A stretch of 64,000 bases of DNA from Candidatus Hydrogenedens sp. (GTDB lineage Bacteria; Hydrogenedentota; Hydrogenedentia; Hydrogenedentales; Hydrogenedentaceae), in the NCBI GenBank assembly GCA_049968235.1, contig JBMFRC010000001.1:128001-192000 (forward strand). Direction: 5' to 3'. Under the pieces are notes generated by a model. That model worked only from the letters and a program-made list of their open reading frames with translations, was not told the DNA's origin and searched no databases. How positions within the stretch are numbered: position 1 is the first letter of the stretch; the number at the start of each line of letters is the position of its first letter. Made by a program: the position numbers and the translations under genes. Shown piece by piece: positions 5,942-29,300 of this stretch.

Positions 5942-5963
5942 ATATGTATCTCCTTATATTCAA

Positions 5964-8531: not shown

Positions 8532-8548
8532 TTTCTCTACCTCATTTG

Positions 8549-11364: not shown

Positions 11365-11372
11365 GGTAATTT

Positions 11373-12260: not shown

Positions 12261-12263
12261 AAA

Positions 12264-12827: not shown

Positions 12828-13597
12828 ACAACGGTATAATAATCATTATTTGCGTTTCTTACATAAAAACCAATTGATTCTGTTAACCCGAGAGGTGTTA
12901 CAGGTATTTCTACAAGACCTCTGGAAAACTTATTTCCACCGATAAAAACGCTTTCAATCGTTATATTTTCGGACAAACGAACCGGAGATAGACCCGGTTC
13001 ATTGACTTCTTCTATTACTGGCTCTATATTAAATATATCCACATTATTCTTTTTATCAAAAAGAGGTCCTATCTCATCCATTAGGCTATCTTCATGTTTC
13101 ACATTTTTTGCTTGTTCTATTAATTTCCTTTTTGCCAATTTTTCAAATCGGTCATTAATCTGTCGGTTCATGGCTTCTGTATCAAAACCTCCTGGAGCAG
13201 GAGTGTTTCTCGTGTTTTTTGTAGTGCCTGTTCCCGTAGCAGAATTCATAAAAAGTTCTGCCATTTGTTCCGGGGACATGCCCTGCTCTTTCATACTTTC
13301 AAACAGCCCTAATTGGTCTTGTTCTCCCTCATTTGCCTCAGGATAAGTAACTTTTAAACAATAATATTTCTGTTGGTCTAAATCAATTTCTACATAGAAT
13401 TCATCTCCCAATAAAGCGGATGTTGACATTACTGCTCTACCGAAATATGCTAATCGCCTGGCTTCGCTTTCCAACTCCGAAGATAATGCAAGGGGAAGCA
13501 AATAAGGAACAGTAATAGTTGCCATTAAGGCAATAATAAAAATAACAATCCCCAATTCAAGCAATGTAAAGCCATCTTTTCCCCGTAAAGCAACCAT
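12779..13597 (-). CDS. GspH-like minor pseudopilin
   Basis: N-terminus MVALRGKDGFTLLELGIVIFIIALMATITVPYLL has the prepilin motif with Glu+5. It directly follows gspG. Confidence 0.5.
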   Translation of the reverse strand: MVALRGKDGFTLLELGIVIFIIALMATITVPYLLPLALSSELESEARRLAYFGRAVMSTSALLGDEFYVEIDLDQQKYYCLKVTYPEANEGEQDQLGLFESMKEQGMSPEQMAELFMNSATGTGTTKNTRNTPAPGGFDTEAMNRQINDRFEKLAKRKLIEQAKNVKHEDSLMDEIGPLFDKKNNVDIFNIEPVIEEVNEPGLSPVRLSENITIESVFIGGNKFSRGLVEIPVTPLGLTESIGFYVRNANNDYYTVVWDPVSAGAYVLEGAQ

Positions 13598-13642
13598 AAT
13601 TTTAATATTTATACCTCATGCAAAAAATAATATCCTGCGGAA

Positions 13643-14038
13643 TTAATCTTCGCTGGAAATGTCCGCATTGACTCCACTCCCCCCGGGACTTCCATCTCCA
13701 CCATAGGACATAATCTTATAAGAAGAGTTTCCTTCTTTTTGATAGACATATGCGTTACCCCACGGATCTAACGGAACTTTGGGTGGGTCAAGAAATGGAG
13801 CAATTTCTTCTAAAGTGTTCGGCAAACGTTTGTTTTTTATCCGATACATCTGGATGGCAGTCTTCATATTACTGATTTCTGCTTTTGCTTTTGCCTGGTC
13901 CGCATCATCCAACGCACCAAATACATAAATACCGACGGTCGTGGCAAGAATTGCAATAATGGCTATAACTACCATTAGTTCTACCAGTGTAAAGCCCAAT
14001 AAATTCTTTATTTTTTTCTTCGTTTTTTCTTGTGTCAT
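13643..14038 (-). CDS. gspG: type II secretion major pseudopilin GspG
   Basis: 131 aa. Prepilin motif LLGFTLVELMVVIAIIAILA with Glu+5. The GspG-signature C-terminal region includes DPWGNAYVY. Confidence 0.85.
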   Translation of the reverse strand: MTQEKTKKKIKNLLGFTLVELMVVIAIIAILATTVGIYVFGALDDADQAKAKAEISNMKTAIQMYRIKNKRLPNTLEEIAPFLDPPKVPLDPWGNAYVYQKEGNSSYKIMSYGGDGSPGGSGVNADISSED

Positions 14039-14041
14039 GTT

Positions 14042-15280
14042 TCATCCTCCAACATGTGTACTCATTTTTAGTATAGGCAATAAAATCGCCAGAACCAGAA
14101 ATCCGACGAAAATACCCATTACTACTATTATAACGGGTTCTATCAGTCCAACGATAGCATCAACGGTCAAACGAACATCTTCATCATAGGTATCTGCTAT
14201 CTGAATTAACATATTTTCCAGTTCACCACTTCGTTGCCCTAATTCAACCATATGAATCATCATAGATGGAAATATTCCGGAATCTTTCATAGGCTGAGCC
14301 AGGTCTCTACCTCTACGGACACCTGCTTTTATATCATCCAGATGCATTTGAATGAACCGATTATCCATAATACTATAAACAACATCCAGAGCAGGAAGCA
14401 TGGTTAAACCGCTTTGAAGCATTGTCCCCAATGTCCGTGAGAATCTTGCACAAAGTAATTTTTGAAGTAAAGTACCATAGAGCGGAATTTTAAATTTCCA
14501 TCGGTCCCATTTTTTTTTGCCTTCTTCGCGACTAACCCATATCCGCCATATTATTATCAGAAAAAATAAAAAGCCTATGAAGAATATGCCGTATTTCCCT
14601 AAAAAGGAGCTTACCCCTATAAGCACATCGGTAATGAAAGGTAGTTCTGATTGTTGTTTCTTAAAAATAGTCGTGATTCGAGGGACAATAACAGTCATCA
14701 TAAAAGTAATAACCGTAATAGCAAAAACGGTCATAAAAGCAGGGTAGGCAATGGATGATAGTATCTGTGCTTTTATCTTTGCCTGTCGGTCTAAAACATC
14801 TGCCAGACGATTTAATACCTGCTCTAATGTTCCACTGGCTTCTCCAGCACGAACCATATTTACATAAAGAGAACTAAAAATACGGGGATGCTCTGCCAGT
14901 GCGTCTGCGAGATTTTTCCCGGCATTTACTTTATCACGGACATCCAGTATTGCGGTTTTTAATCGTTGACGGGATGTTTGATTTATTAATGCATTCAGGG
15001 CTTCTACCAGAGGCATACCGGCACGGAGTAGCACTGCAAACTGTCGTGTCATTAAGGCTACGTCTCTTGTTGAAACACCGCCACCAAACAGGAAAAACTG
15101 CGATTTTCCTTTCCCTCCTTCTTTTAAACTAACACCATCTGTAACTTCTTTTAGTTCGGTGGGATAAAGGTCTAACTCCCGTAATTTCATTCGTGCTAAT
15201 GCAGGTGAATCCGCGTCAATTACGCCACGCGTTGTTTTTCCACTATCTTTTATTAGTGCTTTATATTGATAAACAGGCAT
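14042..15280 (-). CDS. gspF: type II secretion platform protein GspF
   Basis: 412 aa polytopic protein of the GspF/PilC family. Lies between gspE and gspG with a 4-nt spacing to gspG. Confidence 0.85.
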   Translation of the reverse strand: MPVYQYKALIKDSGKTTRGVIDADSPALARMKLRELDLYPTELKEVTDGVSLKEGGKGKSQFFLFGGGVSTRDVALMTRQFAVLLRAGMPLVEALNALINQTSRQRLKTAILDVRDKVNAGKNLADALAEHPRIFSSLYVNMVRAGEASGTLEQVLNRLADVLDRQAKIKAQILSSIAYPAFMTVFAITVITFMMTVIVPRITTIFKKQQSELPFITDVLIGVSSFLGKYGIFFIGFLFFLIIIWRIWVSREEGKKKWDRWKFKIPLYGTLLQKLLCARFSRTLGTMLQSGLTMLPALDVVYSIMDNRFIQMHLDDIKAGVRRGRDLAQPMKDSGIFPSMMIHMVELGQRSGELENMLIQIADTYDEDVRLTVDAIVGLIEPVIIVVMGIFVGFLVLAILLPILKMSTHVGG

Positions 15281-15327
15281 ATTTTCTCAAAATATTATAA
15301 AGGGGTGTTTTTTTTCTTGCTTTCTTT

Positions 15328-17067
15328 TTAATAGGTTTCTTCAAATACATCGTCTCTGGTTACCCGAAGGACTTCTTCCAATGTTGTTAATCCTTTCAAC
15401 ATTTTTTCTGCTCCGTCTTCACGGAGGGTACGCATTCCTTCTTTATGTGCTTCTCGTTTAATTACATTTGAGTCCGCTCCTTCAAGAACTAATTCTTGTA
15501 TCCTCGGACTCATCATTAATAGTTCAAATATTCCCGTTCTGCCATAATAACCCCGTTCCATACACTTTTGACATCCTTTACCTCGCCATAAAGTTTCTGC
15601 TCGTGGGTCGGGCTTTTTTATACCTAATTCTTCTAATGGATTTCGGTCAGGTTTATATGGTTCCTTACATTGGGTACAAATTTTACGCACCAATCGCTGG
15701 GCTTGAATTGCAATACAGGAAGAGGTAACAAGAAAAGGTTCAATTCCCATATTCGTAAGTCGGGTGATAGCACCTGCACTATCATTTGTATGTAATGTTG
15801 CAAAAACGAGATGTCCTGTTAAAGATGCTTGAACTGCCATTTCGGCTGTTTCTAAATCACGAATTTCACCTACAAGAATAATATCCGGGTCCTGTCTCAA
15901 AATACTTCTTAAACCTGCTGCAAAGGTCAATCCTATTTTGGGACGAACCTGTATCTGTCCAATCCCCGCAATTAAATATTCTATAGGGTCTTCTAAGGTA
16001 ATAATATTTTTGTCGGGAGAATTAACCCTCTGCAAGGAAGCATATAAAGTTGTAGATTTTCCAGAACCAGTAGGTCCTGTAACTAAAATAATTCCGTGGG
16101 AGACTGTAATAATGCGGTCAAACATCTTGTGGTCGCGTTCATCCATTCCCAAATCTTCCAGGCTGAACAGGAAATTCCCTTTTTCAAGGATACGTAAAAC
16201 CACGCGTTCACCAAAAGCGGTTGGGAGTATGGACACACGAATATCAATTTCTTTGCCACTTAACTTAATTTTTATACGTCCATCCTGTGGTAAACGATGC
16301 TCTGCAATATTGAGATTGGACATGATTTTAATACGCGAAATCACCGCTGCCTGCTGAGATTTGGGTATTGTAAATTTCTCATACAGAACGCCGTCAATAC
16401 GATAGCGGACACGGACTTCGCGTTCAAATGGCTCAATATGAATATCCGACGCCCTTTCTTTAACCGCTCCTGTAATAAGTAAGTTGATAAGTTTAATAAT
16501 CGGTGCTTCATTAGCAAGGTCCAGCAGGTCCTTTTCGGTCTCTGTTCCATCTAAGGTATGGATGGTTGTCGCACCGTCTTCTTCTGCCATTGCTATTGTA
16601 TCTATCATCTCAGCGGTATTTTGCGTTTGACTGTCAAAATAAGAATCTACAATTTTTTGTATATCTGATTTACGGCATAAAACGGGCTGAACTGAACCAC
16701 CGAGAAGTACCCGTAGGTCATCCAGAGGCAGGAGATTTATAGGGTCATTTAAGGCAACCAGATAACCGTTCCCGTTTTGTTTAAACGGAACCATAAAATA
16801 TTCGCGAATAAAATTTATTGGAACTTTCGTAATCAGGTTCATATCCACCTGTTGTGAAAGATTTAATTCCATTGGGATTCCAAACTGTTCGCTTAATGCT
16901 TCCAGAACATGTTCTTCTTCTACAAAACCGAGGTCCAGCAAAATCTCTCCTAACCGGCGCGGTTTAATCTTCTGGAGTTCTAAAGCCTCCGTTATTTGCT
17001 CCGGATGAACATATCCTTTTTGGAGTAAAATTTCTCCAAACTGCATTTCAGCGAGTAACTTATCCAT
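15328..17067 (-). CDS. gspE: type II secretion ATPase GspE with N-terminal MshEN domain
   Basis: Walker [15 protein letters not shown]; LHTNDSAGAITRL; tetracysteine CTQCKEPY...CQKC. N-terminal motifs MQFGEILLQKGYVHPEQITEALELQ and RRLGEILLDLGFVEEEHVLEALSEQ. The start codon overlaps the gspD stop (TAATG). Confidence 0.9.
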   Translation of the reverse strand: MDKLLAEMQFGEILLQKGYVHPEQITEALELQKIKPRRLGEILLDLGFVEEEHVLEALSEQFGIPMELNLSQQVDMNLITKVPINFIREYFMVPFKQNGNGYLVALNDPINLLPLDDLRVLLGGSVQPVLCRKSDIQKIVDSYFDSQTQNTAEMIDTIAMAEEDGATTIHTLDGTETEKDLLDLANEAPIIKLINLLITGAVKERASDIHIEPFEREVRVRYRIDGVLYEKFTIPKSQQAAVISRIKIMSNLNIAEHRLPQDGRIKIKLSGKEIDIRVSILPTAFGERVVLRILEKGNFLFSLEDLGMDERDHKMFDRIITVSHGIILVTGPTGSGKSTTLYASLQRVNSPDKNIITLEDPIEYLIAGIGQIQVRPKIGLTFAAGLRSILRQDPDIILVGEIRDLETAEMAVQASLTGHLVFATLHTNDSAGAITRLTNMGIEPFLVTSSCIAIQAQRLVRKICTQCKEPYKPDRNPLEELGIKKPDPRAETLWRGKGCQKCMERGYYGRTGIFELLMMSPRIQELVLEGADSNVIKREAHKEGMRTLREDGAEKMLKGLTTLEEVLRVTRDDVFEETY

Positions 17068-19724
17068 TATTTTCTATAAATTGTCCCACGGTTAAATTCT
17101 TCTTGTTCTACCTGTCCGGTTAACGCTTCTGTCCTATCTAAAGTAGGACGATAATTTTTTCGCATATCTGCCTTTGCCTTAACTTTTTTGAAAAACCCGC
17201 CCTTGAATAACTCTTGTATATTTACATCTTGATATTCTGTAACCTTATACTGTGTAACCCGCTCCATATCACTGGATTCTTTTACAATATGTGGTGTAAC
17301 CAGAACTACCATATTACGTTTTTCTCGCGATACGGATTTATTACGAAATAGGAAACCTAATAAAGGAATATCTCCCATAATTGGAACTTGTGTCCTATTC
17401 CGGTCTGCGGTATCTCTTATTAAACCGGCTAAAACTGCTGTTGAACCATCTTTTACAAGCACTTGATTTTTAAATAGAGATTTATTTGTTGTCGGACCTA
17501 AAATATTTACATCCCCTACAGATTGAGTACCTCCAGCCACTGCAGATACTTCTATCTCAATTTTCATCAAAACATTATCGCCCTCACTGATTTGAGGGGT
17601 TACCGTGAGTTTGATACCTACCTCATGTCGTTCTACACGAGTATAACCGCCCCATGTGCTTCCTATAACCTCTCCCGTCGTTGTGCGTTGAGGACTTGCT
17701 GTGCTTGTAATGAATGGGACTTCCTGACCTACGACTATGGATGCCTCTTCATTATCTACCGTAACCAAACTGGGTTGAGAAAGCACTTCTAAATCGGAAA
17801 CAGTCTCTATTGCTTGTAACAGGAGTGGGACAAAAGGAACCCGTAACCGCTGGGTCTTGCTGATTGGAATAACAATGTCGTCATATATCCCTGTTGTGAG
17901 ACCTCCTCCGGAACCTAAACTTAACGCTCCTAACATACGATTCAGTCGGCTCGGGCTGGTAATTTTATTCGCCGCATCTGCTGCAGGTTTTAAGGAATCT
18001 ACAATTTTTTGTATATTTTGTGTTCCTGTAACAGCAAATCCGGAATTTCCACTAATACTTGCGGAATCTACTTTGACCCCATAATCATTGTTCAATCGCA
18101 CGTCCATGACTACTGCATCAACAAGCACCTGTCTTTGGGGTACATCCAGACGGGCAATAAATGCTTCTAACACTTTATAATCCTGTGGGGAAGCAACAAC
18201 AAGCAGTGAATTGGTCTGGTCATATCTTGTAATTTGAACTCGCTGTTCAAACGGTTGCACATCTCCCGGAGCAGAAGACATGGTTGAAGGGGCTATTGTT
18301 CCACCAGCACCTGGCACCGCACCCCCTGGAGTTGTTCCGGCACCTGTAGGTCGTCTTGTTGAACCAGAACCACCAATGAGTGGTTGTAATGCCTGCTCTA
18401 CTTTCTCTGCATCGGCATTTAGTAGTTCATAAATATGCAAATTATTGGCTTCATAAGGAGTAGGACAGTCTAACCGTTTTATCAGGTCACGAACTTTTTC
18501 CATCATACCTTCAGTTGCAACAACGATTAACGCATTCAATCTCGTATCGGGAACCATACGAAGGACTTCCTGTCGCGAACCAATAATTTGCATGGACGGC
18601 GCACCTGGTACAGAACGTGTCGGAGGTCTTACCACAGGTTGTGGGGTCATAGGAGTTCCCGGAACTCTACCACCCGCAGTTGTGGTTTTCGTTTCGGATA
18701 AAACTTGTTCAATCTGTTGGGCTAAGGCTTCTGCACGGGTATATTCGAGCATAAATATTTCCATTTCCGTTTCATTTCCGGAAACATCTATTTCTTGTAG
18801 AAATGAAAATATGCGTTTTAGCCCATCTGCAGTGTCTGTAATAATCAATGTATTTGTAGGTGCGTAGGCAGAAATACGACATGATTTGGAACCCAATACC
18901 TGTAAAGCGGTAGATACTTCGGAGGCATCTGCATACTTTAAGGTAATAATATGAGTAGCAAATTTGTCATACCCTTCTGGAAGTTTTTCGGTTCCTCTGA
19001 TTAAGGGTGTTTTTTCAGAGGCAACAGCGTCGGGAGTTGCAATTATCTTGATTAATTTTCCATCTAGCGTCTCAACCATAGAGAAGCCTCGAGATGCCAG
19101 TATAGATTCAAGAACCTGATATGCCATTTCAGGGGGAATTTTATCATGAGTTATAACAGTAACAGTTGTCGCTCCAATGTTCGGGTCAACATCAAAGTTT
19201 CTGCCCGTTAAACGAGCAATTGCTGCTATAACATCATATAAAGGGGCATCGTGAAAATCGAAGGAAATCGGTTCGGAAGGAGTTTCACCTGTTTTGGGTC
19301 CTGTTTCTGCGGCAATACCGATAGGGGTCTTTCCCGATGTATCACCTCCCGGAGGAGTTTTCCTTGGTCCAGGAGGGAGGGGGGGGTGATTTCCTCTTCT
19401 CATTGTGGGGAAAGAAGGTATAGGTGGTCTTGAGGAACCTGGAGGGGAGACAGGTTCCGGCATTGTAATAGGAGGGCGAACTGCTTCTGGTGCGGTTTGA
19501 GGAGGCATTTCTGGAGGATTTTCTGGAACCGAAGGTGCATCCACAATCTGCGGTATTTCGATATTTGTCGGAGGAGCATCCTGCGGAACCTGCTCTACAT
19601 CCTGACCATAGCCAGAATATACAAACATATTAACAAACAGTAATAAAAAAATAATTATTCTTTTCCCAGAGAAAAAGAAACAGCGATTCTTATAGTTTGA
19701 TATAAACTCAATTGGATTTCGCAA
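17067..19724 (-). CDS. gspD: type II secretion outer-membrane secretin GspD with Pro-rich N-terminal extension
   Basis: Secretin C-domain motifs: VLVKDGSTAVLAGLIRDT, IPLLGFLFRNKS and VVLVTPHIV. Upstream N0 and N-domain repeats. Signal peptide followed by about 100 aa rich in Pro. Confidence 0.85.
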   Translation of the reverse strand: MRNPIEFISNYKNRCFFFSGKRIIIFLLLFVNMFVYSGYGQDVEQVPQDAPPTNIEIPQIVDAPSVPENPPEMPPQTAPEAVRPPITMPEPVSPPGSSRPPIPSFPTMRRGNHPPLPPGPRKTPPGGDTSGKTPIGIAAETGPKTGETPSEPISFDFHDAPLYDVIAAIARLTGRNFDVDPNIGATTVTVITHDKIPPEMAYQVLESILASRGFSMVETLDGKLIKIIATPDAVASEKTPLIRGTEKLPEGYDKFATHIITLKYADASEVSTALQVLGSKSCRISAYAPTNTLIITDTADGLKRIFSFLQEIDVSGNETEMEIFMLEYTRAEALAQQIEQVLSETKTTTAGGRVPGTPMTPQPVVRPPTRSVPGAPSMQIIGSRQEVLRMVPDTRLNALIVVATEGMMEKVRDLIKRLDCPTPYEANNLHIYELLNADAEKVEQALQPLIGGSGSTRRPTGAGTTPGGAVPGAGGTIAPSTMSSAPGDVQPFEQRVQITRYDQTNSLLVVASPQDYKVLEAFIARLDVPQRQVLVDAVVMDVRLNNDYGVKVDSASISGNSGFAVTGTQNIQKIVDSLKPAADAANKITSPSRLNRMLGALSLGSGGGLTTGIYDDIVIPISKTQRLRVPFVPLLLQAIETVSDLEVLSQPSLVTVDNEEASIVVGQEVPFITSTASPQRTTTGEVIGSTWGGYTRVERHEVGIKLTVTPQISEGDNVLMKIEIEVSAVAGGTQSVGDVNILGPTTNKSLFKNQVLVKDGSTAVLAGLIRDTADRNRTQVPIMGDIPLLGFLFRNKSVSREKRNMVVLVTPHIVKESSDMERVTQYKVTEYQDVNIQELFKGGFFKKVKAKADMRKNYRPTLDRTEALTGQVEQEEFNRGTIYRK

Positions 19725-19768
19725 GTTTCAACTCCTAATATATAAATATTTGTTGTTCATATCTATAA

Positions 19769-20731
19769 CTAATCTTGTATTCTATAGATTATTTCCATCG
19801 GGTTTCCATTTCTAAGGATGGATACTTTAACAGAGGGAAGTGTAACATCACTGTATTTTTTTATCAAGTCTATTACCTTTTCATCACTATCAATAATATC
19901 GTCGTTTACTGCGGTAAGGACATCTCCTTCCTTAAACCCTAATTTTACTGCAATCGGAATTTCACTAATATTTTTTGCAGTAATGCCGAGTACTTTGCCT
20001 TCCGCATCTTTATACAATTCCGGCTTAACACGCGTAACCAAATCTGCATAACTTGCAAAAAAGTCCTGTACGATTTCATCTCGATTTAAATCTACTTGCT
20101 TTTTCTCAGGCTCATTCGTTTTTGCAGGTTTCGAATCAGTTTTACTGGGTGGTTTTTCCTCTTTTGCTTTTAATAATTCTAAAGATTTATCTTCTAATTT
20201 CAATCGTTCTCTTTTAGGGGGATGGGTTTTTTTATTTAACAATATCACTTCTTTAGGATATACCTCTTCTAAAACTACCTGCTCAACGACTTCCTGTCCA
20301 ATAGCAAAAGCAGCGGTAATTCTTTTGTCGGAATTTTCAATGAAAGCGGATGCAAATCGGTCTTTAGGAGACAGGGCAATGGTCCCTATTAATTTTAAGT
20401 TTAATTGAGTATCTTCAAGAGTATCCTGAGGAGACAGTTGTTCTGTTTTTTCTTCTTTTTTAGGAACTGTATCCTCTGTCCATCTACCTGCATTTCCAAA
20501 TAAACCTGATTGTGTTATTTTGTTGAAAAGACTTTTAGCATCAATATTTATTAACTCATTCTGCACAGTTCCTTCTTCCTCACCGGCTATACCTGTTTTT
20601 TTGGCTATTTTCTGGGCAGGATTGTAGGTATAAATAATAAAAAAGAAAACTCCAAGTGCAATAAGTATTGAAAAAATCAGTATGATATGAATAAGAAAAA
20701 ATAGTCTTTTAATTTCTAACGAATGAACCAT
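19769..20731 (-). CDS. GspC-like protein (N-terminal TM, charged linker, C-terminal PDZ domain)
   Basis: TM helix LFFLIHIILIFSILIALGVFFFII. C-terminal PDZ-like segment GITAKNISEIPIAVKLGFKEGDVLTAVNDDII. It is the first gene of the gsp array. Confidence 0.5.
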   Translation of the reverse strand: MVHSLEIKRLFFLIHIILIFSILIALGVFFFIIYTYNPAQKIAKKTGIAGEEEGTVQNELINIDAKSLFNKITQSGLFGNAGRWTEDTVPKKEEKTEQLSPQDTLEDTQLNLKLIGTIALSPKDRFASAFIENSDKRITAAFAIGQEVVEQVVLEEVYPKEVILLNKKTHPPKRERLKLEDKSLELLKAKEEKPPSKTDSKPAKTNEPEKKQVDLNRDEIVQDFFASYADLVTRVKPELYKDAEGKVLGITAKNISEIPIAVKLGFKEGDVLTAVNDDIIDSDEKVIDLIKKYSDVTLPSVKVSILRNGNPMEIIYRIQD

Positions 20732-20914: not shown

Positions 20915-23332
20915 TTATTGTTTCTTTCTCACAAGGCTTTTGAGATATAACAAATAGTCTTCAAGCGATATATTCGTATTGGTTTCATCCATTTTCTGAA
21001 CAGAAGACATGGATTGAATTGCCTTTTTATCTGTATTATAGAAAATGCTGTCATACTCACTATAGGGTTTTACAAATTGTTTGCCCGTTTGAGGATTTTC
21101 TGTAACTACAGTTACACTTCTTGTTCCTGCATATAAAGTCCATTTACTGCTTTTAGGCAAATAACGCAAATAAATAATGGCTTTGTCTCCGACTTTAAAT
21201 TCGGGCATCTCCGAGCAAACCATAGCATAGCCATTCACTCTACCCCCGGGGATGGTAAAGATTACAGAACTATTCTCGTTAACAGGTCCTTTTATTGTTT
21301 CTATCACTTTAACTTCAACATCTGTGTATATTCTCATATTTTCTGTCATATAACTGTTTAGCGAAAGGACTTCTGCATTGACTACTGCATCGGATTGGTT
21401 CGTAAGTTCGTCTGTATTAAGAAAGGCGATTCTCGCAGAAGCATTAGAAAGAAATCCAAAAATAGACACTGCAATAATAATGAAAAGTATTGTGGTTTTT
21501 GCTTTTGTTTTAACAGATTGCATTTTCTTTATCTTCCTCCATATAACAAGCAGAATCATAATTGCTATGAGGGAACTCCAGATATTATTTTTAACTAACC
21601 ATGCAAGACTATATACGGTGCCGGCAAATATATATCGCATCATTTCTGATCTTAATATTACCTTAGAAATCATCGGAGCCATTGTATAATATATATCAAC
21701 AAAGGCAATTCCCATACCTGAATTCATCAAATAATTATCTCTAAAAATTCTCAAATCGTTAGACAAAGAAATCGAACCTAATGTGCCAGTAGTCGTTGTC
21801 GTTGTAGTAGTTCCTGTTGGGACTTCAATAATATTCATAGGACAGACATCATTGGGGTCTCCAAACATAGGTTTTCGATTTGTCCTCATTTGAGGGAGTG
21901 TTTTACCTGTAGTACTACTTACAACCACATTTTTTGTAAAACTCCATACCAATCCGGTACCTGCATCTTTACTGCTTACATCCAGTACATTTTCAACTTC
22001 GTGAAACACCTCTGACATAAAGTTCGTTTGATAATCTGTATCAGCACGAGTTGTTACAGAATAACTATTGGGTCCCTGAATACTATCTACATCAGAGGGG
22101 GGTATTCCTTCTGGAGCCTGACGGTCTAATCCCGTTCCGTTCAAAGCATTTAAGGTTAATGTGTAGGAAGGGGTAAACAATTCGCCATCTTTACCGGGAA
22201 CTTCCATGGTTTTCCATAAACCGATGAGATTAAATTTACCTTGAAGTTGCTTATTAATGAGTGGCTCGTATAAACCTACCATTGTACTGAATAAAGGCAC
22301 ACGCGAGGTATTGGGATTATTATCTACATCTGCCCAGGCGACAACATGTCCACCGGGGAGTGGAATAGAAGGAATTCCAGACCCTCTTCGTGTTCTGCTT
22401 CTTGCTTCATGTTTTATATCAAAGAAATTTTCCTGAGCACCCCTTGGATAAAGCCATGAAATACCTGAAATATCATCCGGAGCAAGGTCTTTCCCGCCAT
22501 CTTCTCGTTGACCATTCGGTAGTTCTACTTCAAAATAAATAGGGAACATAGTCGGTGTTGCTCCGATATACTGATGCAGACCATCGGGCATTGTCCTCCA
22601 CACGACAGGATTTTCTATAAGGTAAGAAGGTAATTCATCCCCTTCATTTAAATAAATAGCTCTTAAATTGTTCAAGGGGGTATGGTCTAATCCTAAAAAA
22701 TGCCCCAATTCATGAACAAGTGTTCCTTTTAAATCTGCTAATGGTTCATCACCGGATTCTGAATTATATCGGTGTGCCGTTGCAGATATAACAATATCAC
22801 GGTCAACAACTGTCCCCGCAGAAATAGGGTATATCTGCCCGTTATGTTCGTATACTGTATCGGTAACTGTAAAAAGTGTGAGTGTTACTCCCAATATTCC
22901 TCCACCCACATCCACTGTTTCCGGGTCCGGTTCAACATTCTCACCGGTATCATCTGCTTCGGTAACATACATGGATATCGTGGGCAGGGAATCGGGCACT
23001 GTCAGGGAAATAGGGTCTTCGTAATAACCTATAATCCGAAAGCAGGCGTAGGAAGTTGTAACTTCCTCCCAGACCTTTAATGCTTCTTTAACTTTTTCTA
23101 TTTCATCATCGGTAAAGCCTCTTTTCCCTCTTTCTATATAAATACCGATACCTTCTCCTGTGGTTATTTTACCATCGTTGTTCGTATCAAATTCGTAGAA
23201 GGGCCATCGTGCCAATCGTAATACATTAAATGCATCAAATCCACCGGAGGGGAAAAATGCATAACTATTCCATTGGCAAATAGAAATAATTAATAATGTT
23301 AATGAATATACAAATAATAGTTGTTTTTTCAC
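20915..23332 (-). CDS. membrane-anchored matrixin-like (M10-type metzincin) zinc metalloprotease
   Basis: Signal peptide. Zinc-binding HELGHFLGLDH (HExxHxxGxxH). Met-turn candidate TPTMFPIY. Matrixin-like PDDISGISWLYP. Ca-loop-like DTNNDGKITTGEG. Thr8 linker, two predicted TM helices (SSLIAIMILLVIW and TTILFIIIAVSIFGFL), then a roughly 190-aa C-terminal domain. Confidence 0.7.
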   Translation of the reverse strand: MKKQLLFVYSLTLLIISICQWNSYAFFPSGGFDAFNVLRLARWPFYEFDTNNDGKITTGEGIGIYIERGKRGFTDDEIEKVKEALKVWEEVTTSYACFRIIGYYEDPISLTVPDSLPTISMYVTEADDTGENVEPDPETVDVGGGILGVTLTLFTVTDTVYEHNGQIYPISAGTVVDRDIVISATAHRYNSESGDEPLADLKGTLVHELGHFLGLDHTPLNNLRAIYLNEGDELPSYLIENPVVWRTMPDGLHQYIGATPTMFPIYFEVELPNGQREDGGKDLAPDDISGISWLYPRGAQENFFDIKHEARSRTRRGSGIPSIPLPGGHVVAWADVDNNPNTSRVPLFSTMVGLYEPLINKQLQGKFNLIGLWKTMEVPGKDGELFTPSYTLTLNALNGTGLDRQAPEGIPPSDVDSIQGPNSYSVTTRADTDYQTNFMSEVFHEVENVLDVSSKDAGTGLVWSFTKNVVVSSTTGKTLPQMRTNRKPMFGDPNDVCPMNIIEVPTGTTTTTTTTGTLGSISLSNDLRIFRDNYLMNSGMGIAFVDIYYTMAPMISKVILRSEMMRYIFAGTVYSLAWLVKNNIWSSLIAIMILLVIWRKIKKMQSVKTKAKTTILFIIIAVSIFGFLSNASARIAFLNTDELTNQSDAVVNAEVLSLNSYMTENMRIYTDVEVKVIETIKGPVNENSSVIFTIPGGRVNGYAMVCSEMPEFKVGDKAIIYLRYLPKSSKWTLYAGTRSVTVVTENPQTGKQFVKPYSEYDSIFYNTDKKAIQSMSSVQKMDETNTNISLEDYLLYLKSLVRKKQ

Positions 23333-23398: not shown

Positions 23399-26300
23399 TT
23401 ATGTTGTCTGTTTTTTCTTTGCAGACAGGAGAAACAGCAAAACTGCAATTACCAGACCTATATCAAAGGCATAAGCACTGAAACTTGATTGTTGAGTATC
23501 TTGTCTTTCAGCACAACCAAACATATAAAAACGTTTTTTAGGTGTCTGGGCATCATTTGCATATTCGAAACCTCCTACGAGCGTTTTTTCTGTCCCCTGG
23601 TCTATATTTTTCACAGTAACATCCAGAGATCCTACTGTTGGAATACCGCCCAATGGGAAAGTTATCAGGATGGATGTCCCGTCTGCTGATACAGATTGGA
23701 CAGGCATTAATGTATTTCCGAAATATACCTGTATATTTTCAATCGTTGAGAAATTGGATCCTTGTATGGTTACCGGAAATTCTTTTGATGTACCTTTGTT
23801 CGGATTTATGGAATTGATAATAGGTATCCGTCCCACAGGCTTCGATGTAAGTGTAAATAAATCGGTCCGTGAGGCTTCATCTCCGTTAGAAGTGTTCCGT
23901 ACCAATAAAACTATAGGCTCCATAGGAACAACTCCGGGCATTGTACTAACGGCTATAGTTATGCTGGTATCCGTTGCCTGAATAACACGAACTTGATAAC
24001 CGGATAAACGCACTACAGGGTTGTTTCCAAAATTCCTTCCATATATAACCAATGTAATTTCCTGCCCTTCAAGGGTCTGTATGGGTAATTCAGAGATAGA
24101 TGTGGATTCTATTACCAGTGAAGATGGGGCTATGATTCTATTTATAGAATTAATTACACCGGTTCTCCGTTTCTTGGTGCAATGGGAACGAACCCAGTTT
24201 ACACCCGAATTATCGGCTTTTGCTCCTGCTTTTTTCCCATCCATATAATATCGAACAGGAGGCTCTTTGAAATAGGTAATGAATCCCAGTCCTCTAACGC
24301 CCCATGGAAATTCTCTAAATTTACGGAAATCATTTCTTTGCTCACCTGACAGACGAGCCCAGGTATCGGGGTCAGGTTCTGTTGGTGTATTAGGTCCCCA
24401 GTTAACCACTCCAATTCTGAAATTCACACCGGTTCTCATTTTATCTGAGGCACGTAATATAACAAAGAAATCGGGACCATAAAAAGGATTCTTGTTATTT
24501 GAACCAAACGATGTAGGTATCCATTGACGATTACGAGATTGTTGCACACGAGGAATAGGCACATCATCTGTACCCGGACTGGAAAACACAAATTTAACCT
24601 GGGTGGCTTCACCTGTTTGACCGATATAATAAGGTGTTGCATCTAAGGGTATTGGAATATCTATGTCTGCATCAAAGATGCCATTCCTGTTTCTTGGGTC
24701 AGCGTCATTATCTCGATATAAAGCAATACCACTAATCTGTGGGTCAATATGAAGAGGTAACAAATCATTCAATGGATTAAAGTTCGCATTTGTACCTTCA
24801 TCATAAAATTCCAATGTAACTTCTTCTAAGAAACTGGGATTGCGTTCAATCCGCCAGGAACCATTGCGTGGAGTCCCGCTCAGTAAATACACCTGATTCG
24901 TTGTATTCCCCACAATTTCATAAGATTCAAAAGCAGAATCTATCAAGAAATCTCCAATAAGTGAGTTCGGTTCAAAAGTCACACCGGATACTGTAAATGT
25001 TTTTTCAGAACCTACACCATTTGTTCCTTGATAAAGACTATCTTCGGGTCTGTTCGTTGAAATATCAAATCCCATTACACAAAAGGAGGGACCTCCGGGA
25101 ACAATTGCTTGTTGTTGACTTGTAAAGTCATATATTTGCACGGGTATATTTGTCTCAAGCATATCGTTCCCGTAGAAGTCCTGGACAGGGTCTTCTTCCG
25201 GACTTGATTTAATATATGCAGTGGAACTAGTATTAACCTGTGGGAAGAATTGAATACCTGCTTTTTTCTCCGAATCGCTTCTTCCGGGTAGTGTTGCTGG
25301 TATTACCGCTCTGAAGGATTGGAATCGTTTCCCTTTATCATTCAGTCGAACAGTAATGAAGAGGTCATCTCCGGGATTATTTCCGGTTTCATTCGTTATT
25401 TGTTTCTCTAAGGATTGATTTGTGGTATTTGTCTCTTCGCTCGATTTCTCTTTTATATTCTTTTCAAATATGACATCGCTGAAATCTATATTTCCACATT
25501 CTATTGGAACAGTACCAAAAAGGAAATTCATAAAATCATCCGTAGGTAATCGCCACTTTTCTTTTGGATACATGGTAAGAACCCATGCATAATCTCGCTG
25601 GTCGATTAGACCATTACCATCCATATCATCCGGAGAACCATCTCCATCAATATCAATAGGTTCAGGCCAAGAACTCCATTGTAAATTATTCAATGGGACA
25701 GGCTTATCTCCTATATTTGGCATTGGCAAATCCCAGTAGGTTGCCAATAGTTTGGGTTCAAAGAAAATTCCATTCTGGTCGGTATCTTCCCAAAGCAAGA
25801 CACCCGAGTCGTAACTCTTACCATCCGGGTCCAGTGGCATAAGTAAATCCGGAGAGAAATCAGGTCCCCAGAACGCAACAACAATTTTTGCTACAGATGG
25901 GGCTTCCTGCCCTTCATTGTTTACGACATAATCACCCGAACCTACCAAATTAATACCTAACATAGCGGTATGTTCCGAGTTAATATCTGTTTTTTGTGTA
26001 AGTAATCTTGCTCGATTAAACTCCGAAGCCCACTGACTTGCCCGCGGATATTCATTAGGACCTATATTGCGAGACCATGTAGTATAATCCGGTAAGGCAG
26101 GTTGGTCTAAGGGATTTACATACGCAGAGGAACGCGTGTCCGGACCCAAAATATTCACATGGTCAAACGGAACTGTCTCATAAGCATATTGCCCTCTACT
26201 ATGAGTATAGTCAAAACTAACGGTAAATGTGTTATTATCTGTAATAGAATAAGTAAATCCACCAAATTCACGCCATCTTGTTACACCTACCGAATGTAAA

Positions 26301-29300
26301 TTCAAGAATTGTGTCCTTATCTTTCCTTCGGGGTCCATCCACTTATCAAAATCTTTTGGATAATCGTATAATCCGACGGAATAGCCAAGACAATTTCCTA
26401 AATTAATAGAACCGGAACCATAGAATATATCTGATTCAAATTTATAAGGGGAATCGGATGTATAAGTTAACACTAAGTCATGGACATCCAACCCTACTTT
26501 CATAGGTTTTGTAGATTTTTCATTTACTGTTCGTTGATTCCACCACGGTTCTTGTTGTCCCCATCTCAAATCTGATTGCCAGGGAGGACCTCCCCCATCC
26601 AAAAGTCCGCCTAATGGAGGAATCTGGGAATCTACATAAATACCTCCTGTAGGTTTACCATTATTATCAACCCGTCTTGGCTCTATAAAGACGCGGAAAT
26701 CTGCACCCATCATAACACCATTACCATCAGGTACGGTCTGAGAAACATCCTTAAATCCACTGTCTGTTCTTATTACAACGAAGTAATCACTCGCATATTC
26801 ACTTCCTGTAGCCACACCAACATAATTATCCGGTATCGGCTCAACAAAACCGGAGACATCGTTATCACTGGGAGTAACATATCTCCTTCGTCCATAGAAG
26901 AAACGAAGATTTATCTTCCACCATGGGTCTCCTCCTCCCGGTGGGAATGGTATGTATTCCCAATTGAGTAGTTGACCTGTAGGCAAAATAAAACCTTCAG
27001 ACAGATTAATTCCGATTACCGTCTCGGGTAATAATGGATAGTCACCGTTTAACTGGACTCCTTGTCCATCAGGAAGTGGTGTCGGTGGGTCAAATTTACC
27101 GTTATTATTTGTATCATGCCACACCCAAACACCATTAAAAACAATATCCTGGAATAACACCTTGTCACTATTTATCAAAAGTCCATTTATTTGAGTAGAA
27201 ACTTTATCCAAAGATTCACGAGGGTCAAAACCTCCATTGCCGGGAGGACCGTATGGGTCTGCTCCAATATCTGTAAAAATAACATTTACCTCTCGAAGTT
27301 GTGACCATATCCTCTTCTCTGCGGTATAACGCGGTCCTACTAACGTGTCATATCCATCTGCATGCACAGATTTTGTAGAATGGACATTTATTCCTATCAC
27401 AGGTTTCCATGTATCCATAGCAACCAGGCGACGGAACGACAATAGTTCTCCGGCATACATATATAACAGTTGGTTAAACTTTGACCACTTGGGGCGTGTA
27501 TGTTCTGCAAGAGGTGTATATAACCGCGTCGGATAATTCCATGCATCAAAACCACTATACTCCCATTGCTCAGGATTGATAATACCGTTCAAATCCCAAA
27601 CAGTAAAACTGGCAGAATAGCCTGTGTCGGATATCATTTTTTCTGGTTTTTTCGCATCATAGAAGTTTGGGTCATACTCATCTATTGCATCTCCATCTGT
27701 ATTTCTTGGAAAGATACCATTAAGTTTTATCATCTCCGCACGAAGAACATCACAAGCCATAGTAATCTGGCTTCGCCATGTGGCAGATGTTCGAACGGCG
27801 ACAATATAGGAATTTCCATCAAATCCTTCATCTTGATTGGGAGCCGTTACAACAGGATAATCCGGTTTATCTGGTGTTCCACTCCCAATAAAGTTCAGCC
27901 TATAAGTAATACCCTCCGGAGAATATGGATTTTGCGTCAGAATTTGTGCTAATGGCGTTCCATCCGAATTCCACTTAAATAACAATTCATCATAATAGGG
28001 GTCTAATTGATTATTATATTCTTCTTTCTTTGAATAGTTTTCCCTGAATAAGGCAAATTCTAATAAATCAGAAATATTGGGACCTCCCTGATTCCCATAA
28101 TTTAACTCACCTTGACTTCTTTTATCCGCTCGAATTCGATATACTAACGATTTCAAAACTCGTGGAGCCGGATTTTCCGGGTCATAGCCCATTGTAAAAT
28201 TAAATAATGGAACCCAGTCTGTCAAGGGCAAAAGTGCTTCTTTATCTTTGATTATAGATTGGACAGAGAATTTGGCACTTGGCTCCTCTTGATTTTCACC
28301 TTCTGTTGTTCCTTCTGTTTGCCCTTCTCCTTCTGTCGTTGATGGACAACCAATACATGGACCTACAGTTATATAATTAGGTATCAGATAACATAGTTTC
28401 ATGGTCTCATTAGTATTTACATTTTTAAATGTTACTTCAAGAGTGACAGAATAGAATCCTTCTTTAGTGTATCTATGTATCGGGTTCTGTTGTGTGGATT
28501 CTATAGCAGGGACATTATCTCCAAAACTCCAGGACCATGCAGTAACTTTCCAGATATCTGTTCCGACGGACATATCCCTAAACTGCACATCCAGGCCCGG
28601 TTCTTTTTCACCCATAGCATCCGGCGTTATGTATCCTGAATTGGGTTGGGCAGTGAAGCTAACATAGGGAGCACTTAATATTTCTATATAATCTCTTTTA
28701 ATTTTAGATGCACTTAATCCATTCTTATCTTTTATAACGACGCTGACGGTATATGTTCCTGCCTGGGAATATGTATGTGTTGGATTTCTATCTGTGGATT
28801 GTGTACCATCTCCGAAATCCCACTGAACGGAAGCCAGCGTTATTCCACTACCCGGAACTAATGTAAATTTAATTTGTCCTCCGGGTATCTGTCTCTGTCT
28901 ATCCGCCGTAAAATCAACGGTTGGTACCTGCAAAGCCACTATTGTCTTGGTACGACCGGAAGCAACCGGATTTGTGCGAATCCAGTTTAATCCCAATCTG
29001 TCCGATTGAGCCTGGCTCATGTCCACTTCCGCTCGTGCTGTCCATTTGCGGAGTCTATCATTATATGCCCAATAACGATAAATAAGTGGGTCCTTAAAGA
29101 AACTAATAAACCCTAATGCACGATTTCCCCATGGGAATTCGGAATATAGGTAGAACAATCCATCGTTAATATCACCGGCACCCGGATATATACGAACAAA
29201 ATTATCCGGGTCGGGTTCCGTAGGGGTATCTCCACCAAACGAGACTATTGCTGCCTGGAATGCATCTCCTGCACTTATTGCAGATGATGTTCGGATTACC

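What the first reader, a model, noticed from the sequence alone, without database searches (positions are those of the whole stretch)
20915..23332. Membrane-anchored matrixin-like metzincin placed between the giant gene and gspC
HELGHFLGLDH matches the metzincin HExxHxxGxxH zinc site. It is followed by a Met-turn candidate (TPTMFPIY) and a matrixin-like DDISGISWLYP string. The protein also has a signal peptide, a Ca-loop-like DTNNDGKITTGEG, a Thr8 linker, two TM helices and a roughly 190-aa C-terminal domain.

Matrixins are uncommon in bacteria. One located 66 bp downstream of the giant adhesin-like gene and 183 bp upstream of the T2SS operon is a plausible maturation or release protease for the giant protein, or itself a T2SS cargo.
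Basis: partly seen in the sequence, partly recalled or inferred. Interest (0 to 1): 0.55.

Follow-up and report, generated by a model that had tools for sequence, protein, structure and literature searches.

The report
MMP-like protease fused to TIMP-fold domain
This gene from an uncultured Hydrogenedentota bacterium encodes a membrane-tethered, collagenase-like zinc protease joined in one chain to a domain with the fold of animal protease inhibitors (TIMPs); it always sits beside a giant surface-protein gene, which suggests that protease and TIMP-fold partnerships are widespread in bacteria.

Summary
An 805-aa ORF (20915-23332, minus strand) carries every quoted motif, 66 bp after a 3825-aa gene and 183 bp before gspC.

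The N-terminal half is matrixin-like but atypical. Pfam M10 scores 23 bits against a cutoff of 24, and about 44 residues separate the third His from the Met-turn.

New findings:
2. This domain has no Pfam or NCBIfam model, yet it is tied to M10 proteases across phyla. It is fused to M10 in 14 of 15 multi-domain proteins and encoded directly upstream of an M10 gene in 5 of 6 stand-alone cases.
3. The second "TM helix" is a conserved internal signal peptide (AxA rule obeyed in 117 of 117 homologues).
4. The giant gene is the invariable upstream partner (59 of 59 loci; four in-frame fusions). T2SS adjacency is not universal.
5. The zinc site was lost at least six times (about 40% of representatives) without relaxed constraint elsewhere in the protein.

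Most likely this is a surface-sorted protease made together with its cognate NTR-fold regulator and dedicated to the giant protein. Inhibition and substrate are inferred, not shown. I class it as a new variant of a known kind.

The parts
20915..23332 (-). Whole ORF, 805 aa: metzincin-like protein fused to an NTR-fold domain
23258..23332 (-). N-terminal signal peptide (res 1-25, ...NSYA|FFPSGG)
   Evidence: Sequence reading. The -3/-1 positions are small residues and the mature FFPxGG N-terminus is near-invariant in 117 homologues
22433..23257 (-). MMP-like catalytic domain (res 26-300)
   Evidence: PF00413 at 23 bits for residues 188-219; 20 of 30 relatives hit PF00413; Foldseek matches to MMP-13, MMP-7, MMP-8, MMP-12 and karilysin at probability 0.9-0.99
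23150..23188 (-). EF-hand-like Ca-loop DTNNDGKITTGEG (res 49-61)
   Evidence: D49, G54, E60 and G61 are invariant; Pfam EF-hand_7 E=0.0018, below threshold
22682..22714 (-). Zinc site HELGHFLGLDH (res 207-217), intact in this organism
   Evidence: intact in 67 and degenerate in 50 of 117 homologues
22565..22681 (-). Family-specific insert of about 40 aa between the third His and the Met-turn (res 218-256)
   Evidence: Alignment A1; modelled with low confidence. The canonical spacing is seen in P0239
22535..22558 (-). Met-turn TPTMFPIY (res 259-266)
   Evidence: M262 is invariant in 117 of 117 homologues
22442..22489 (-). MMP helix-C-like DLAPDDISGISWLYPR (res 282-297)
   Evidence: D286, D287 and Y295 are invariant; aligns to MMP-11 LSPDDRRGIQHLYGR
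21845..22432 (-). Conserved middle domain of unknown fold (res 301-496), with an acidic cluster (D335, D337, N338, T342, E356, D456, D495) that is conserved only when the zinc site is intact
21758..21844 (-). Invariant Cys497 (PMFGDPNDVC) plus a Thr/Gly-rich linker (res 497-525)
   Evidence: C497 in 117 of 117 homologues; the linker varies in length and composition
21530..21757 (-). CFI-box-CTERM-like helical anchor, LRxFRD...YY..AP, ending in TM1 (res 526-601)
   Evidence: NF041770 at 40.4 bits against a cutoff of 40, model positions 18-64; hydropathy
21434..21529 (-). Basic cytoplasmic loop plus internal signal peptide ending ...SNASA|R (res 602-633)
   Evidence: Loop net charge +3 to +7. 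Position -3 is A105/S7/V4/G1 and position -1 is A109/S4/G4 of 117. The same junction grammar occurs in the giant-to-metzincin fusions
21008..21433 (-). Domain X: NTR/TIMP-fold module (res 634-775)
20918..21007 (-). C-terminal tail with a terminal amphipathic helix (res 776-805)
23399..34876 (-). Giant partner gene, 3825 aa (PKD x2, TIG). Its C-terminal tag is Cys + TM + basic tail (...MFGCAERQ...LVIAVLLFLLSAKKKQTT)
   Evidence: a homologue lies upstream in 59 of 59 loci
8019..20731 (-). T2SS operon downstream: gspC, gspD, gspE, gspF, pseudopilins, gspK, an L/M-like gene

Best explanation
The gene encodes a composite envelope protein that serves as the dedicated partner of the giant surface protein encoded immediately upstream.

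Shown or directly read from sequence. The layout is: (1) a Sec signal peptide; (2) an MMP-like zinc-metalloprotease ectodomain with an intact HExxHxxGxxH, a Met-turn and an MMP-type helix C; (3) a conserved middle domain; (4) an invariant Cys, a flexible linker and a CFI-box-CTERM-like membrane anchor (TM1); (5) a short basic cytoplasmic loop; (6) a second hydrophobic segment with all the features of a cleavable signal peptide; (7) an NTR/TIMP-fold domain. Both large domains therefore face the periplasm or exterior. In other bacteria the NTR-fold domain is almost always fused to, or encoded directly next to, an M10 protease.

Inferred mechanism. The protein is an evolutionary fusion of a C-terminally anchored secreted protease with its secreted NTR-fold partner. 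Signal peptidase cuts after Ala633 and releases the NTR-fold module with a free N-terminus, in 1:1 stoichiometry with the protease. That module binds the protease domain as a latency, inhibitor or folding partner while both are in the periplasm. The giant protein carries its own Cys-led tag. [quoted passage not shown] There it trims, matures or sheds the giant protein. In lineages that have lost the zinc ligands, the same scaffold presumably persists as a non-catalytic binding partner of the giant protein.
For: Architecture and topology.

MMP-likeness: PF00413 hits, three collinear MMP patches, and Foldseek matches to MMP catalytic domains.

Coupling of the domain to M10 proteases: 14 of 15 multi-domain proteins carrying it have a significant PF00413 domain. 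These come from Chloroflexota, Planctomycetota, Oscillospiraceae and others. Five of six stand-alone genes sit directly upstream of an M10 gene. P0239 and P0251 are canonical matrixins with the same protease, TM hairpin and domain X layout.

Internal signal peptide: the (-3,-1) rule holds in 117 of 117 homologues and the preceding loop is always positively charged. An identical junction is used where the giant protein is fused in frame to this protein (L031, L033, L035, L067).

Partnership with the giant protein: 59 of 59 loci; fused ORFs and fused called proteins; and a shared anchor class, since the giant ends in a Cys-tag or, in other lineages, in a canonical CFI-box-CTERM at 92.5 bits.

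T2SS: directly downstream in 32 of 33 intact-site loci.

Literature: Cys-containing tripartite tags are lipidated, cut and carried to the surface by the T2SS (PMC11980579; bioRxiv 10.1101/2023.06.07.544157). A bacterial metzincin and TIMP-like gene pair that interacts functionally is documented in Listeria (PMC8235301).
Against: No experiment exists on this family. Inhibition, cleavage sites, lipidation, localisation and substrate are all inferred.

The NTR fold does not imply inhibition. PCPE-1 NTR does not inhibit MMPs, and no inhibitory activity has been reported for agrin NtA (PMC2871463). Domain X also lacks TIMP's Cys1 and its disulfides, and it has no sequence similarity to any solved NTR protein.

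About 40% of representatives lack the zinc ligands, yet domain X is conserved equally well in them. That is hard to reconcile with a pure inhibitor role.

No CPBP-type or other sorting enzyme is found in the window. The giant protein's tag hits no CTERM HMM.

The catalytic-domain model is of low confidence around the active-site insert.

T2SS adjacency is absent in 19 of 55 assessable loci.
Confidence: 0.5

Rival explanations
1. Non-catalytic adaptor. The conserved job of the family is to bind, chaperone or anchor the giant protein, with the metzincin-like and NTR-fold domains acting as binding scaffolds. Proteolysis is an ancestral or accessory activity that this organism happens to retain.
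For: The zinc ligands were lost at least six times independently, in 50 of 117 representatives. The Met-turn, helix C, Cys497, the EF-like loop and overall per-domain identity stay equally conserved, and the giant gene stays adjacent. NCBIfam already recognises a family of 'MYXO-CTERM-anchored inactivated metalloprotease'.
Against: The inferred root state is an intact site. In intact-site members all four catalytic residues are 100% conserved (67 of 67), together with an extra acidic cluster. This shows purifying selection for catalysis in this organism's lineage.
Confidence: 0.25
2. Plain secreted T2SS cargo. The protein is a nutritional or extracellular-matrix-degrading protease exported by the neighbouring T2SS. 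Its adjacency to the giant gene reflects shared secretion, not a substrate relationship, and the C-terminal domain is only an anchor or spacer.
For: T2SS operon directly downstream in 36 of 55 assessable loci. There is no minus-strand terminator-like site between the genes. Many T2SS substrates are proteases (general knowledge; VesB in PMC12889589).
Against: The giant gene, not the T2SS, is the invariant neighbour (59 of 59 against 36 of 55). In-frame giant-protease fusions occur. Dead-site members are retained. The C-terminal domain is specifically tied to M10 proteases across phyla.
Confidence: 0.1
3. Domain X is a generic OB-fold with a ligand unrelated to the protease (glycan, peptidoglycan or nucleic acid; compare the ComEC N-terminal TM + OB region, Pfam DUF4131). 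Its resemblance to TIMP is convergent.
Confidence: 0.1
4. Dedicated sorting protease. The membrane-proximal metzincin cleaves the C-terminal Cys-tag or CFI-box-CTERM of the giant protein. No sorting enzyme is known for this tag, and here the metzincin would be the missing 'sortase'.
For: Strict pairing with a protein that always ends in such a tag. No CPBP enzyme is present in the window. No published description of CFI-box-CTERM was found in the searchable library.
Against: Dead-site lineages keep tagged giant proteins. The protease carries the same kind of tag itself. Known Cys-tag processing enzymes are intramembrane CPBP proteases (PMC11980579), and one may lie elsewhere in the genome.
Confidence: 0.05

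Closest known systems
Matrix metalloproteinases / bacterial matrixins (MEROPS M10A, Pfam PF00413; e.g. karilysin)
   Same: HExxHxxGxxH zinc site, an M-[F/Y]-P Met-turn, the helix-C motif L-x-P-D-D-I-x-G-I-x-x-L-Y, secreted, and a fold match by Foldseek.
   Different: Scores just below Pfam's threshold. About 44 residues, not about 7, separate the third His from the Met. Thr, not Ser, follows the third His. There is no PRCGxPD cysteine-switch prodomain; the mature N-terminus FFPxGG starts the catalytic domain directly. There is an extra EF-hand-like loop. The zinc site has been lost in many family members.
TIMPs and other NTR modules (MEROPS I35; agrin NtA, PCOLCE NTR, complement C345C)
   Different: No detectable sequence similarity, no N-terminal Cys1, and no conserved disulfides. 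It is bacterial. Here it lies C-terminal to the protease, behind a membrane hairpin. Inhibitory activity is untested, and several NTR modules are not inhibitors (PMC2871463).
Listeria monocytogenes Mtz-Tim pair (Boichis et al. 2021, PMC8235301)
   Same: A bacterial metzincin gene next to a gene for a membrane-tethered TIMP-fold protein. The two proteins interact functionally (Mtz cleaves Tim).
   Different: Gram-positive and phage-derived. Two separate genes in the order protease then Tim. Tim is a lipoprotein. No sequence relationship was detected: tblastn of a domain X sequence against phage genomes found nothing. There is no giant-protein or T2SS context.
Myxosortase-dependent metalloproteases (NCBIfam NF041905, MXAN_2677/2678 family; NF041938, inactivated form) and MYXO-CTERM/T2SS sorting (PMC11980579)
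   Same: A metzincin-type protease carrying a Cys-led membrane tag. Active and inactivated forms both exist. Cys-tag cargo is delivered to the surface by the T2SS. P0239 and P0251, which have the same layout including domain X, score 94 bits on NF041905.
   Different: The window's protein scores only 21.9 bits against a cutoff of 250. Its anchor is CFI-box-CTERM-like, not MYXO-CTERM. No myxosortase was found nearby. The phylum is different.
Serralysin and its periplasmic inhibitor (AprA/AprI, PrtA/Inh)
   Same: A secreted metzincin with a co-encoded periplasmic protein inhibitor whose N-terminus reaches the active site. This is an analogy from general knowledge, and PMC8235301 also raises it.
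   Different: A different inhibitor fold (beta-barrel of family I38), a T1SS instead of a T2SS, and separate genes.

Membership tests
Metzincin clan | Extended zinc motif HExxHxxGxxH/D | tested here: met
   HELGHFLGLDH at residues 207-217
Metzincin clan | Conserved Met-turn downstream of the zinc site | tested here: met
   TPTMFP; M262 is invariant in 117 of 117 homologues, but it lies 44 residues after His217
Metzincin clan | Metzincin catalytic fold | tested here: inconclusive
   Foldseek matches MMP-13, MMP-7, MMP-8, MMP-12 and karilysin at probability 0.9-0.99 and TM 0.4-0.57. However, E is about 1e-2 and the model has pLDDT below 50 for residues 218-291
Matrixin, Pfam PF00413 / MEROPS M10A | Score at or above Pfam's gathering threshold (24 bits) | tested here: not met
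   23.0 bits, E 7.8e-5, residues 188-219 only. 20 of 30 relatives hit at E<=0.01, best 3.9e-7
Matrixin, Pfam PF00413 / MEROPS M10A | MMP spacing and signature: H-S-x(5-6)-A-L-M-Y-P, with Ser after the third His (from established knowledge of MMP sequences) | tested here: not met
   Thr follows His217 and there is an insert of about 40 aa before TPTMFP. The canonical spacing is present in P0239
Matrixin, Pfam PF00413 / MEROPS M10A | Helix-C motif DDxxGIxxLY | tested here: met
   LAPDDISGISWLYP aligns with MMP-11 LSPDDRRGIQHLYG; invariant in the family
Matrixin, Pfam PF00413 / MEROPS M10A | Cysteine-switch prodomain (PRCGxPD) | tested here: not met
   No such motif. The catalytic domain starts at the signal-peptide cleavage site, FFPSGG
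TIMP (MEROPS I35) | NTR / OB-type fold of the N-TIMP domain | tested here: met
TIMP (MEROPS I35) | Free N-terminal Cys1 that displaces the zinc-bound water, with Ser/Thr at position 2 (PMC2871463) | tested here: not met
   The predicted mature N-terminus is RIAFLNT, and there is no Cys in the family at this position. A free N-terminus is predicted but not shown
TIMP (MEROPS I35) | Sequence homology to TIMP/NTR families | tested here: not met
   No TIMP or NTR Pfam hit. The profile search against PDB sequences finds none
TIMP (MEROPS I35) | Tight 1:1 inhibition of a metzincin | not testable with these tools
   Needs biochemistry or a complex model. Only genomic coupling to M10 proteases is shown
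CFI-box-CTERM (NCBIfam NF041770) | HMM score at or above the cutoff (40 bits) | tested here: met
   40.4 bits, residues 526-572, model positions 18-64
CFI-box-CTERM (NCBIfam NF041770) | CFI(ATAAYG) box at the start of the domain, and location at the C-terminus | tested here: not met
   Model positions 1-17 are unmatched. Invariant Cys497 is followed by PMNII and a T-rich linker instead. The domain is internal, with about 230 residues after it. The canonical form is present on giant proteins of other lineages, at 92.5 bits
MYXO-CTERM-type Cys sorting tag (on the giant partner) | Tripartite tag: signature with an invariant Cys, a TM helix and a basic cluster at the extreme C-terminus | tested here: met
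   ...MFGCAERQ...GLVIAVLLFLLSAKKKQTT. A Cys is present in every type-1 tail listed
MYXO-CTERM-type Cys sorting tag (on the giant partner) | Hit to a curated CTERM HMM, and a cognate CPBP sorting enzyme | tested here: not met
   No CTERM model hit. No CPBP family protein among the window's ORFs that were scanned. The rest of the genome was not available
Type II secretion system (neighbouring operon) | GspC, GspD secretin, GspE ATPase, GspF platform, pseudopilins, GspK | tested here: met
   PF11356, TIGR02517 (451 bits), PF00437, PF00482, PF07963 and PF21687
EF-hand calcium loop | 12-residue loop with D/N/D/G/I/E at positions 1, 3, 5, 6, 8 and 12, and a Pfam threshold score | tested here: inconclusive
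   D49-x-N-x-D-G-x-I-x-x-x-E60 fits, and D49, G54 and E60 are invariant. Pfam EF-hand models score below threshold (19 against 30 bits)

The most novel reading that the evidence does not exclude
The NTR/TIMP-fold 'domain X' is the cognate protein inhibitor or latency module of bacterial matrixins. This would mean the protease-inhibitor partnership known from animal MMPs and TIMPs is ancient and widespread in bacteria, either as the evolutionary source or as a striking convergence. In Hydrogenedentota the system would be produced as a polyprotein (giant adhesin, protease, inhibitor, in two ORFs or one). Signal peptidase and tag processing would dismantle it at 'anchor + internal signal peptide' joints before T2SS-dependent surface display.
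Probability: 0.25. Interest if true: 0.85.

Novelty: new variant of a known kind. Interest (0 to 1): 0.68.

Why it matters
TIMPs and other NTR modules are treated as animal inventions. The only bacterial precedent found is one Listeria study that relied on a Phyre2 prediction, and its authors reported finding no other bacterial TIMP-like record (PMC8235301).

Here, a sequence family with no Pfam or NCBIfam model adopts the NTR/TIMP fold with high confidence. It is coupled to matrixin-type proteases in at least four phyla and in three different gene or domain arrangements.

If it regulates these proteases, several things follow:
- It would give a general answer to how the many prodomain-less bacterial matrixins are kept latent.
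- It would make the origin of the MMP-TIMP pair experimentally testable.
- It would supply a new class of protein protease inhibitors.

For Hydrogenedentota, an uncultured phylum, it defines a conserved signature module of giant surface protein, (pseudo)protease and T2SS that probably shapes the cell surface. It also gives a natural series of active and dead protease variants. The 'anchor + internal signal peptide' joints show how secreted partners can be fused into one ORF.

Tried and rejected
- **Sequence searches against the PDB:** single protein, full-length profile and domain-X profile. Nothing was significant (best E about 0.1-0.3), so both fold assignments rest on Pfam, motifs and structure prediction.
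- **Literature:** searches for 'CFI-box-CTERM' and for MXAN_2677/2678 found nothing. Hydrogenedentes plus T2SS gave one incidental paper. Brew & Nagase 2010 is not held.
- **tblastn of a domain X sequence against 50,697 phage genomes**, to test kinship with Listeria phage Tim: no match.
- **afdb50 fold library:** unavailable.
- **Promoter and terminator scan:** promoter-like sites at chance level and no minus-strand terminator. Uninformative beyond compatibility with co-transcription.
- **My first synteny tally** had a 5-residue column offset caused by hmmalign --trim. It was redone correctly.
- **Lipoprotein signal at the N-terminus (…LIISIC):** rejected. The Cys is not conserved, and the conserved cleavage context is A-x-A|FFP.
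- **C-terminal domain as a separate gene starting at Met604:** rejected. There is no stop codon, the Met is not conserved outside close relatives, and all 117 homologues are full length.
- **Correlation between a dead site and absence of an adjacent T2SS as functional evidence:** rejected. It is mostly one clade of 39 representatives, and smaller dead-site clades keep the T2SS.
- **Test for relaxed constraint on the N-terminal segment of domain X in dead-site members:** only a weak signal dominated by a single clade. Not used as evidence.
Full report
**1.
The minus strand carries an 805-aa ORF at 20915-23332, with a GTG start preceded by an AAAGGAG string.

| Residue | String |
|---|---|
| 49 | DTNNDGKITTGEG |
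| 207 | HELGHFLGLDH |
| 259 | TPTMFPIY |
| 286 | DDISGISWLYP |
| 508 | T8 run |

There are also two hydrophobic segments, at 583-601 and 615-633. The ORF lies 66 bp after a 3825-aa gene with PKD and TIG domains and 183 bp before gspC. The genes that follow are gspD, gspE, gspF, pseudopilins, gspK and an L/M-like gene. An identical protein is deposited from a Candidatus Hydrogenedens MAG. More than 120 full-length homologues at 36-88% identity exist, essentially all from Hydrogenedentota.

**2. The N-terminal half is matrixin-like but atypical.**
- Pfam Peptidase_M10 scores 23.0 bits for the window's protein against a cutoff of 24, covering only residues 188-219.
- 20 of 30 aligned relatives hit PF00413 at E<=0.01.
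- A family profile aligns to MMP-11 in three collinear patches: the ...VW..V helix, the zinc site, and LAPDDISGISWLYPR against LSPDDRRGIQHLYGR. This is not statistically significant.
- The full-length AlphaFold model has mean pLDDT 63.7 and is poor for residues 218-291. It nevertheless matches the catalytic domains of MMP-13, MMP-7, MMP-8 and MMP-12 and karilysin at Foldseek probability 0.9-0.99.

From established knowledge of MMP sequences, the M-[F/Y]-P Met-turn and the DDxxGIxxLY helix are matrixin-specific among metzincins.

The protein differs from matrixins in several ways:
- About 44 residues, not about 7, lie between the third His and the Met.
- Thr, not Ser, follows that His.
- There is no cysteine-switch prodomain. 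The near-invariant mature N-terminus FFPxGG starts the domain directly.
- An invariant EF-hand-like loop is present.

The domain is extracytoplasmic. It follows an N-terminal signal peptide, and the only strongly basic stretch is the loop between the two hydrophobic segments.

**3. The zinc site is not a conserved feature of the family.**
- In 117 full-length homologues the HExxHxxGxxH ligands are intact in 67 and degenerate in 50 (for example QSVGS..Y and HHVGQ..Y).
- On a neighbour-joining tree built without the motif columns, the root is intact and at least six losses are needed: one clade of 39 representatives and several small ones.
- Everything else stays conserved in both classes. G214, M262, D286, D287, Y295, C497, P28, D49, G54 and E60 are essentially invariant.
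- Mean per-domain identities are the same in both classes:

| Domain | Intact-site class | Dead-site class |
|---|---|---|
| Catalytic domain | 0.48 | 0.50 |
| Middle domain | 0.54 | 0.55 |
| Domain X | 0.35 | 0.35 |

- An acidic cluster in the middle domain (D335, D337, N338, T342, E356, D456, D495) is near-invariant only when the zinc site is intact. This suggests a second site linked to catalysis.

The window's organism belongs to the intact class.

**4. The C-terminal domain has an NTR/TIMP fold.**
- In the full-length model this region was the most confident part (pLDDT 80-94). It gave Foldseek hits to agrin NtA, TIMP-1, TIMP-2, the PCOLCE NTR domain and complement C345C.
- A dedicated model of residues 634-805, built on 29 stand-alone homologues, reached pLDDT 85.2 and pTM 0.80.
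- Ranks 2-12 are agrin NtA, PCOLCE NTR, meteorin NTR, complement C3/C4/C5 C345C and TIMP-1. Generic OB-folds appear only from rank 13, with 70-90 aligned residues.
- Foldseek on this second model agrees.
- There is no sequence-level similarity to any solved protein, and no Pfam or NCBIfam model covers the domain.

**5. This domain is wedded to M10 proteases across bacteria.**
- A profile search of 1.84 billion representatives showed that, outside the Hydrogenedentota family, the best-matching piece is this module.
- Of 15 multi-domain proteins carrying it, 14 have a significant PF00413 domain. In 12 of these the module sits directly after the signal peptide, in the position of a prodomain.
- The organisms include Chloroflexota, Planctomycetota and Oscillospiraceae.
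- Stand-alone versions of 150-280 aa, each with its own signal peptide, are encoded immediately upstream of an M10 gene in 5 of 6 cases examined. In two of these the stop and start codons overlap.
- P0239 and P0251 are near-complete canonical matrixins (50-58 bits). They carry a Cys-containing tag, a TM helix and an Arg cluster, followed by the module. This is the same layout as here, and they resemble NCBIfam's myxosortase-dependent metalloproteases.

**6. The second 'TM helix' is an internal signal peptide at a fusion joint.**
- After TM1 comes a loop of net charge +3 to +7, then a hydrophobic core, then a site obeying the (-3,-1) rule in 117 of 117 homologues. Position -3 is A105/S7/V4/G1 and position -1 is A109/S4/G4. 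This is at least as strict as at the true N-terminal signal peptide.
- The same grammar (tag, TM, Arg cluster, signal peptide, A-x-A|FFPxGG) joins the giant protein to this protein in four genomes where the two are one ORF: L031, L033, L035 and L067, with no Ns in the region. It also appears in three fused called proteins.

**7. Genomic partnership.**
- Across 68 loci, a homologue of the giant gene lies directly upstream on the same strand in all 59 loci with usable upstream DNA.
- gspC-D-E-F follows directly in 32 of 33 intact-site loci but in only 4 of 22 dead-site loci. This difference is largely a single-clade effect.
- The giant proteins end either in a tag led by a Cys (FGC[GAS], a Gly-rich stretch, a TM helix and a basic tail), as in the window, or, in the more divergent lineages, in a canonical CFI-box-CTERM at 92.5 bits.
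- The metzincin-like protein carries an invariant Cys497, a linker and the distal two-thirds of that same domain (NF041770 at 40.4 bits against 40).
- Published work shows that Cys-containing tripartite tags are processed by CPBP myxosortases and that their cargo reaches the surface through the T2SS (PMC11980579; bioRxiv 10.1101/2023.06.07.544157).
- No CPBP gene lies in the window.

**8. Interpretation.**

Shown:
- the domain architecture and topology logic;
- an intact metzincin site in this organism;
- the NTR fold of the C-terminal module;
- the coupling of that module to M10 proteases;
- the obligate pairing with the giant gene.

Inferred:
- Signal peptidase releases the NTR-fold module.
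- The module binds or regulates the protease. The analogies are TIMPs, the periplasmic serralysin inhibitors, and the Listeria Mtz-Tim pair (PMC8235301).
- The protease is surface-sorted through the T2SS.
- The protease acts on the giant protein.

Cautions:
- NTR modules such as PCPE-1 NTR do not inhibit MMPs, and TIMP action needs a free Cys1, which is absent here (PMC2871463).
- Dead-site lineages keep the module under the same constraint. A binding or chaperone role independent of catalysis is therefore a serious rival.

**9. Verdict.**
The interesting content lies elsewhere: a bacterial protease of MMP type fused to a TIMP-fold module, an uncatalogued NTR-fold family tied to matrixins across phyla, recurrent pseudo-protease evolution, and polyprotein-like fusion joints. 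I rate it a new variant of a known kind, with interest about 0.68.

Noticed in passing
window 23399-34876 (-): The giant protein looks internally duplicated. Its two halves of about 1,900 aa each share long similar stretches (for example KDLIEDGQGLVPLNDWVPLFYFNMKYNPDQPAPR against KDKEALLPLTDWVPLFNFTMGYDPENPAPR), separated by two PKD domains. In tblastn, the N-half and the C-half hit the same regions of homologues. Some lineages have a version of about 2,400 aa (L003).
   Followed up: partly
L040, L043, L044, L047, L049-L053, L061, L063, L064, L067 (giant-gene 3' ends): The C-terminal anchor of the giant protein switches between a Cys + Gly-rich + TM + basic tag and a canonical CFI-box-CTERM (CFIATAAYGS...FRxFRD...) in different lineages. 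This implies the two anchors are functionally interchangeable. No paper in the searchable library mentions CFI-box-CTERM.
   Followed up: partly
window 21845-22432 (-), residues D335, D337, N338, T342, E356, D456, D495: An acidic cluster in the middle domain is near-invariant in homologues with an intact zinc site and variable in dead-site homologues. It may be a second metal site or a substrate site coupled to catalysis.
   Followed up: no
window 767-7805 (-): Downstream of the T2SS operon lies a second set of secretion or pilus genes: three T2SSE-type ATPases (one of them short), a T2SSF platform protein and an N_methyl pilin-like protein. This probably represents a type IV pilus-like system.
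   Followed up: no
window 35299-40425 (-): Upstream of the giant gene is a GldG-like ABC module: an ABC ATPase, an ABC-2 permease, an ABC_transp_aux/GldG-like protein and a DUF4340 protein. This resembles gliding-motility-associated transporters. It was not examined in other loci because the 10-kb flanks ended inside the giant gene.
   Followed up: no
window 41313-44279 (+): A 988-aa ORF with no Pfam hit at E<=0.001.
   Followed up: no
window 49686-52748 (-): A 1020-aa fusion of an LPG_synthase_TM domain with a sulfatase/phosphodiesterase domain.
   Followed up: no
window 21300-21580 (-) and relatives (P0048, P0058, P0065, P0068, P0251): Weak, sub-threshold Pfam DUF4131 hits (the ComEC N-terminal TM + OB region) span the TM hairpin and the start of domain X, in 11 of 30 relatives. 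This may be only a shared 'TM-TM-OB' layout.
   Followed up: partly
L008, L010, L011, L014 and others; L040: Several genome records carrying this Hydrogenedentota-specific gene pair are labelled 'uncultured Nitrospirales/Nitrospiraceae', and one is labelled 'Candidatus Bathyarchaeia archaeon'. These are probably taxonomic mislabels or mis-binned contigs.
   Followed up: no
P0232, P0250 (not in the window): Domain X can occur in tandem. P0232 has two copies before its M10 domain. P0250 (396 aa) has two copies and no recognisable protease domain.
   Followed up: no
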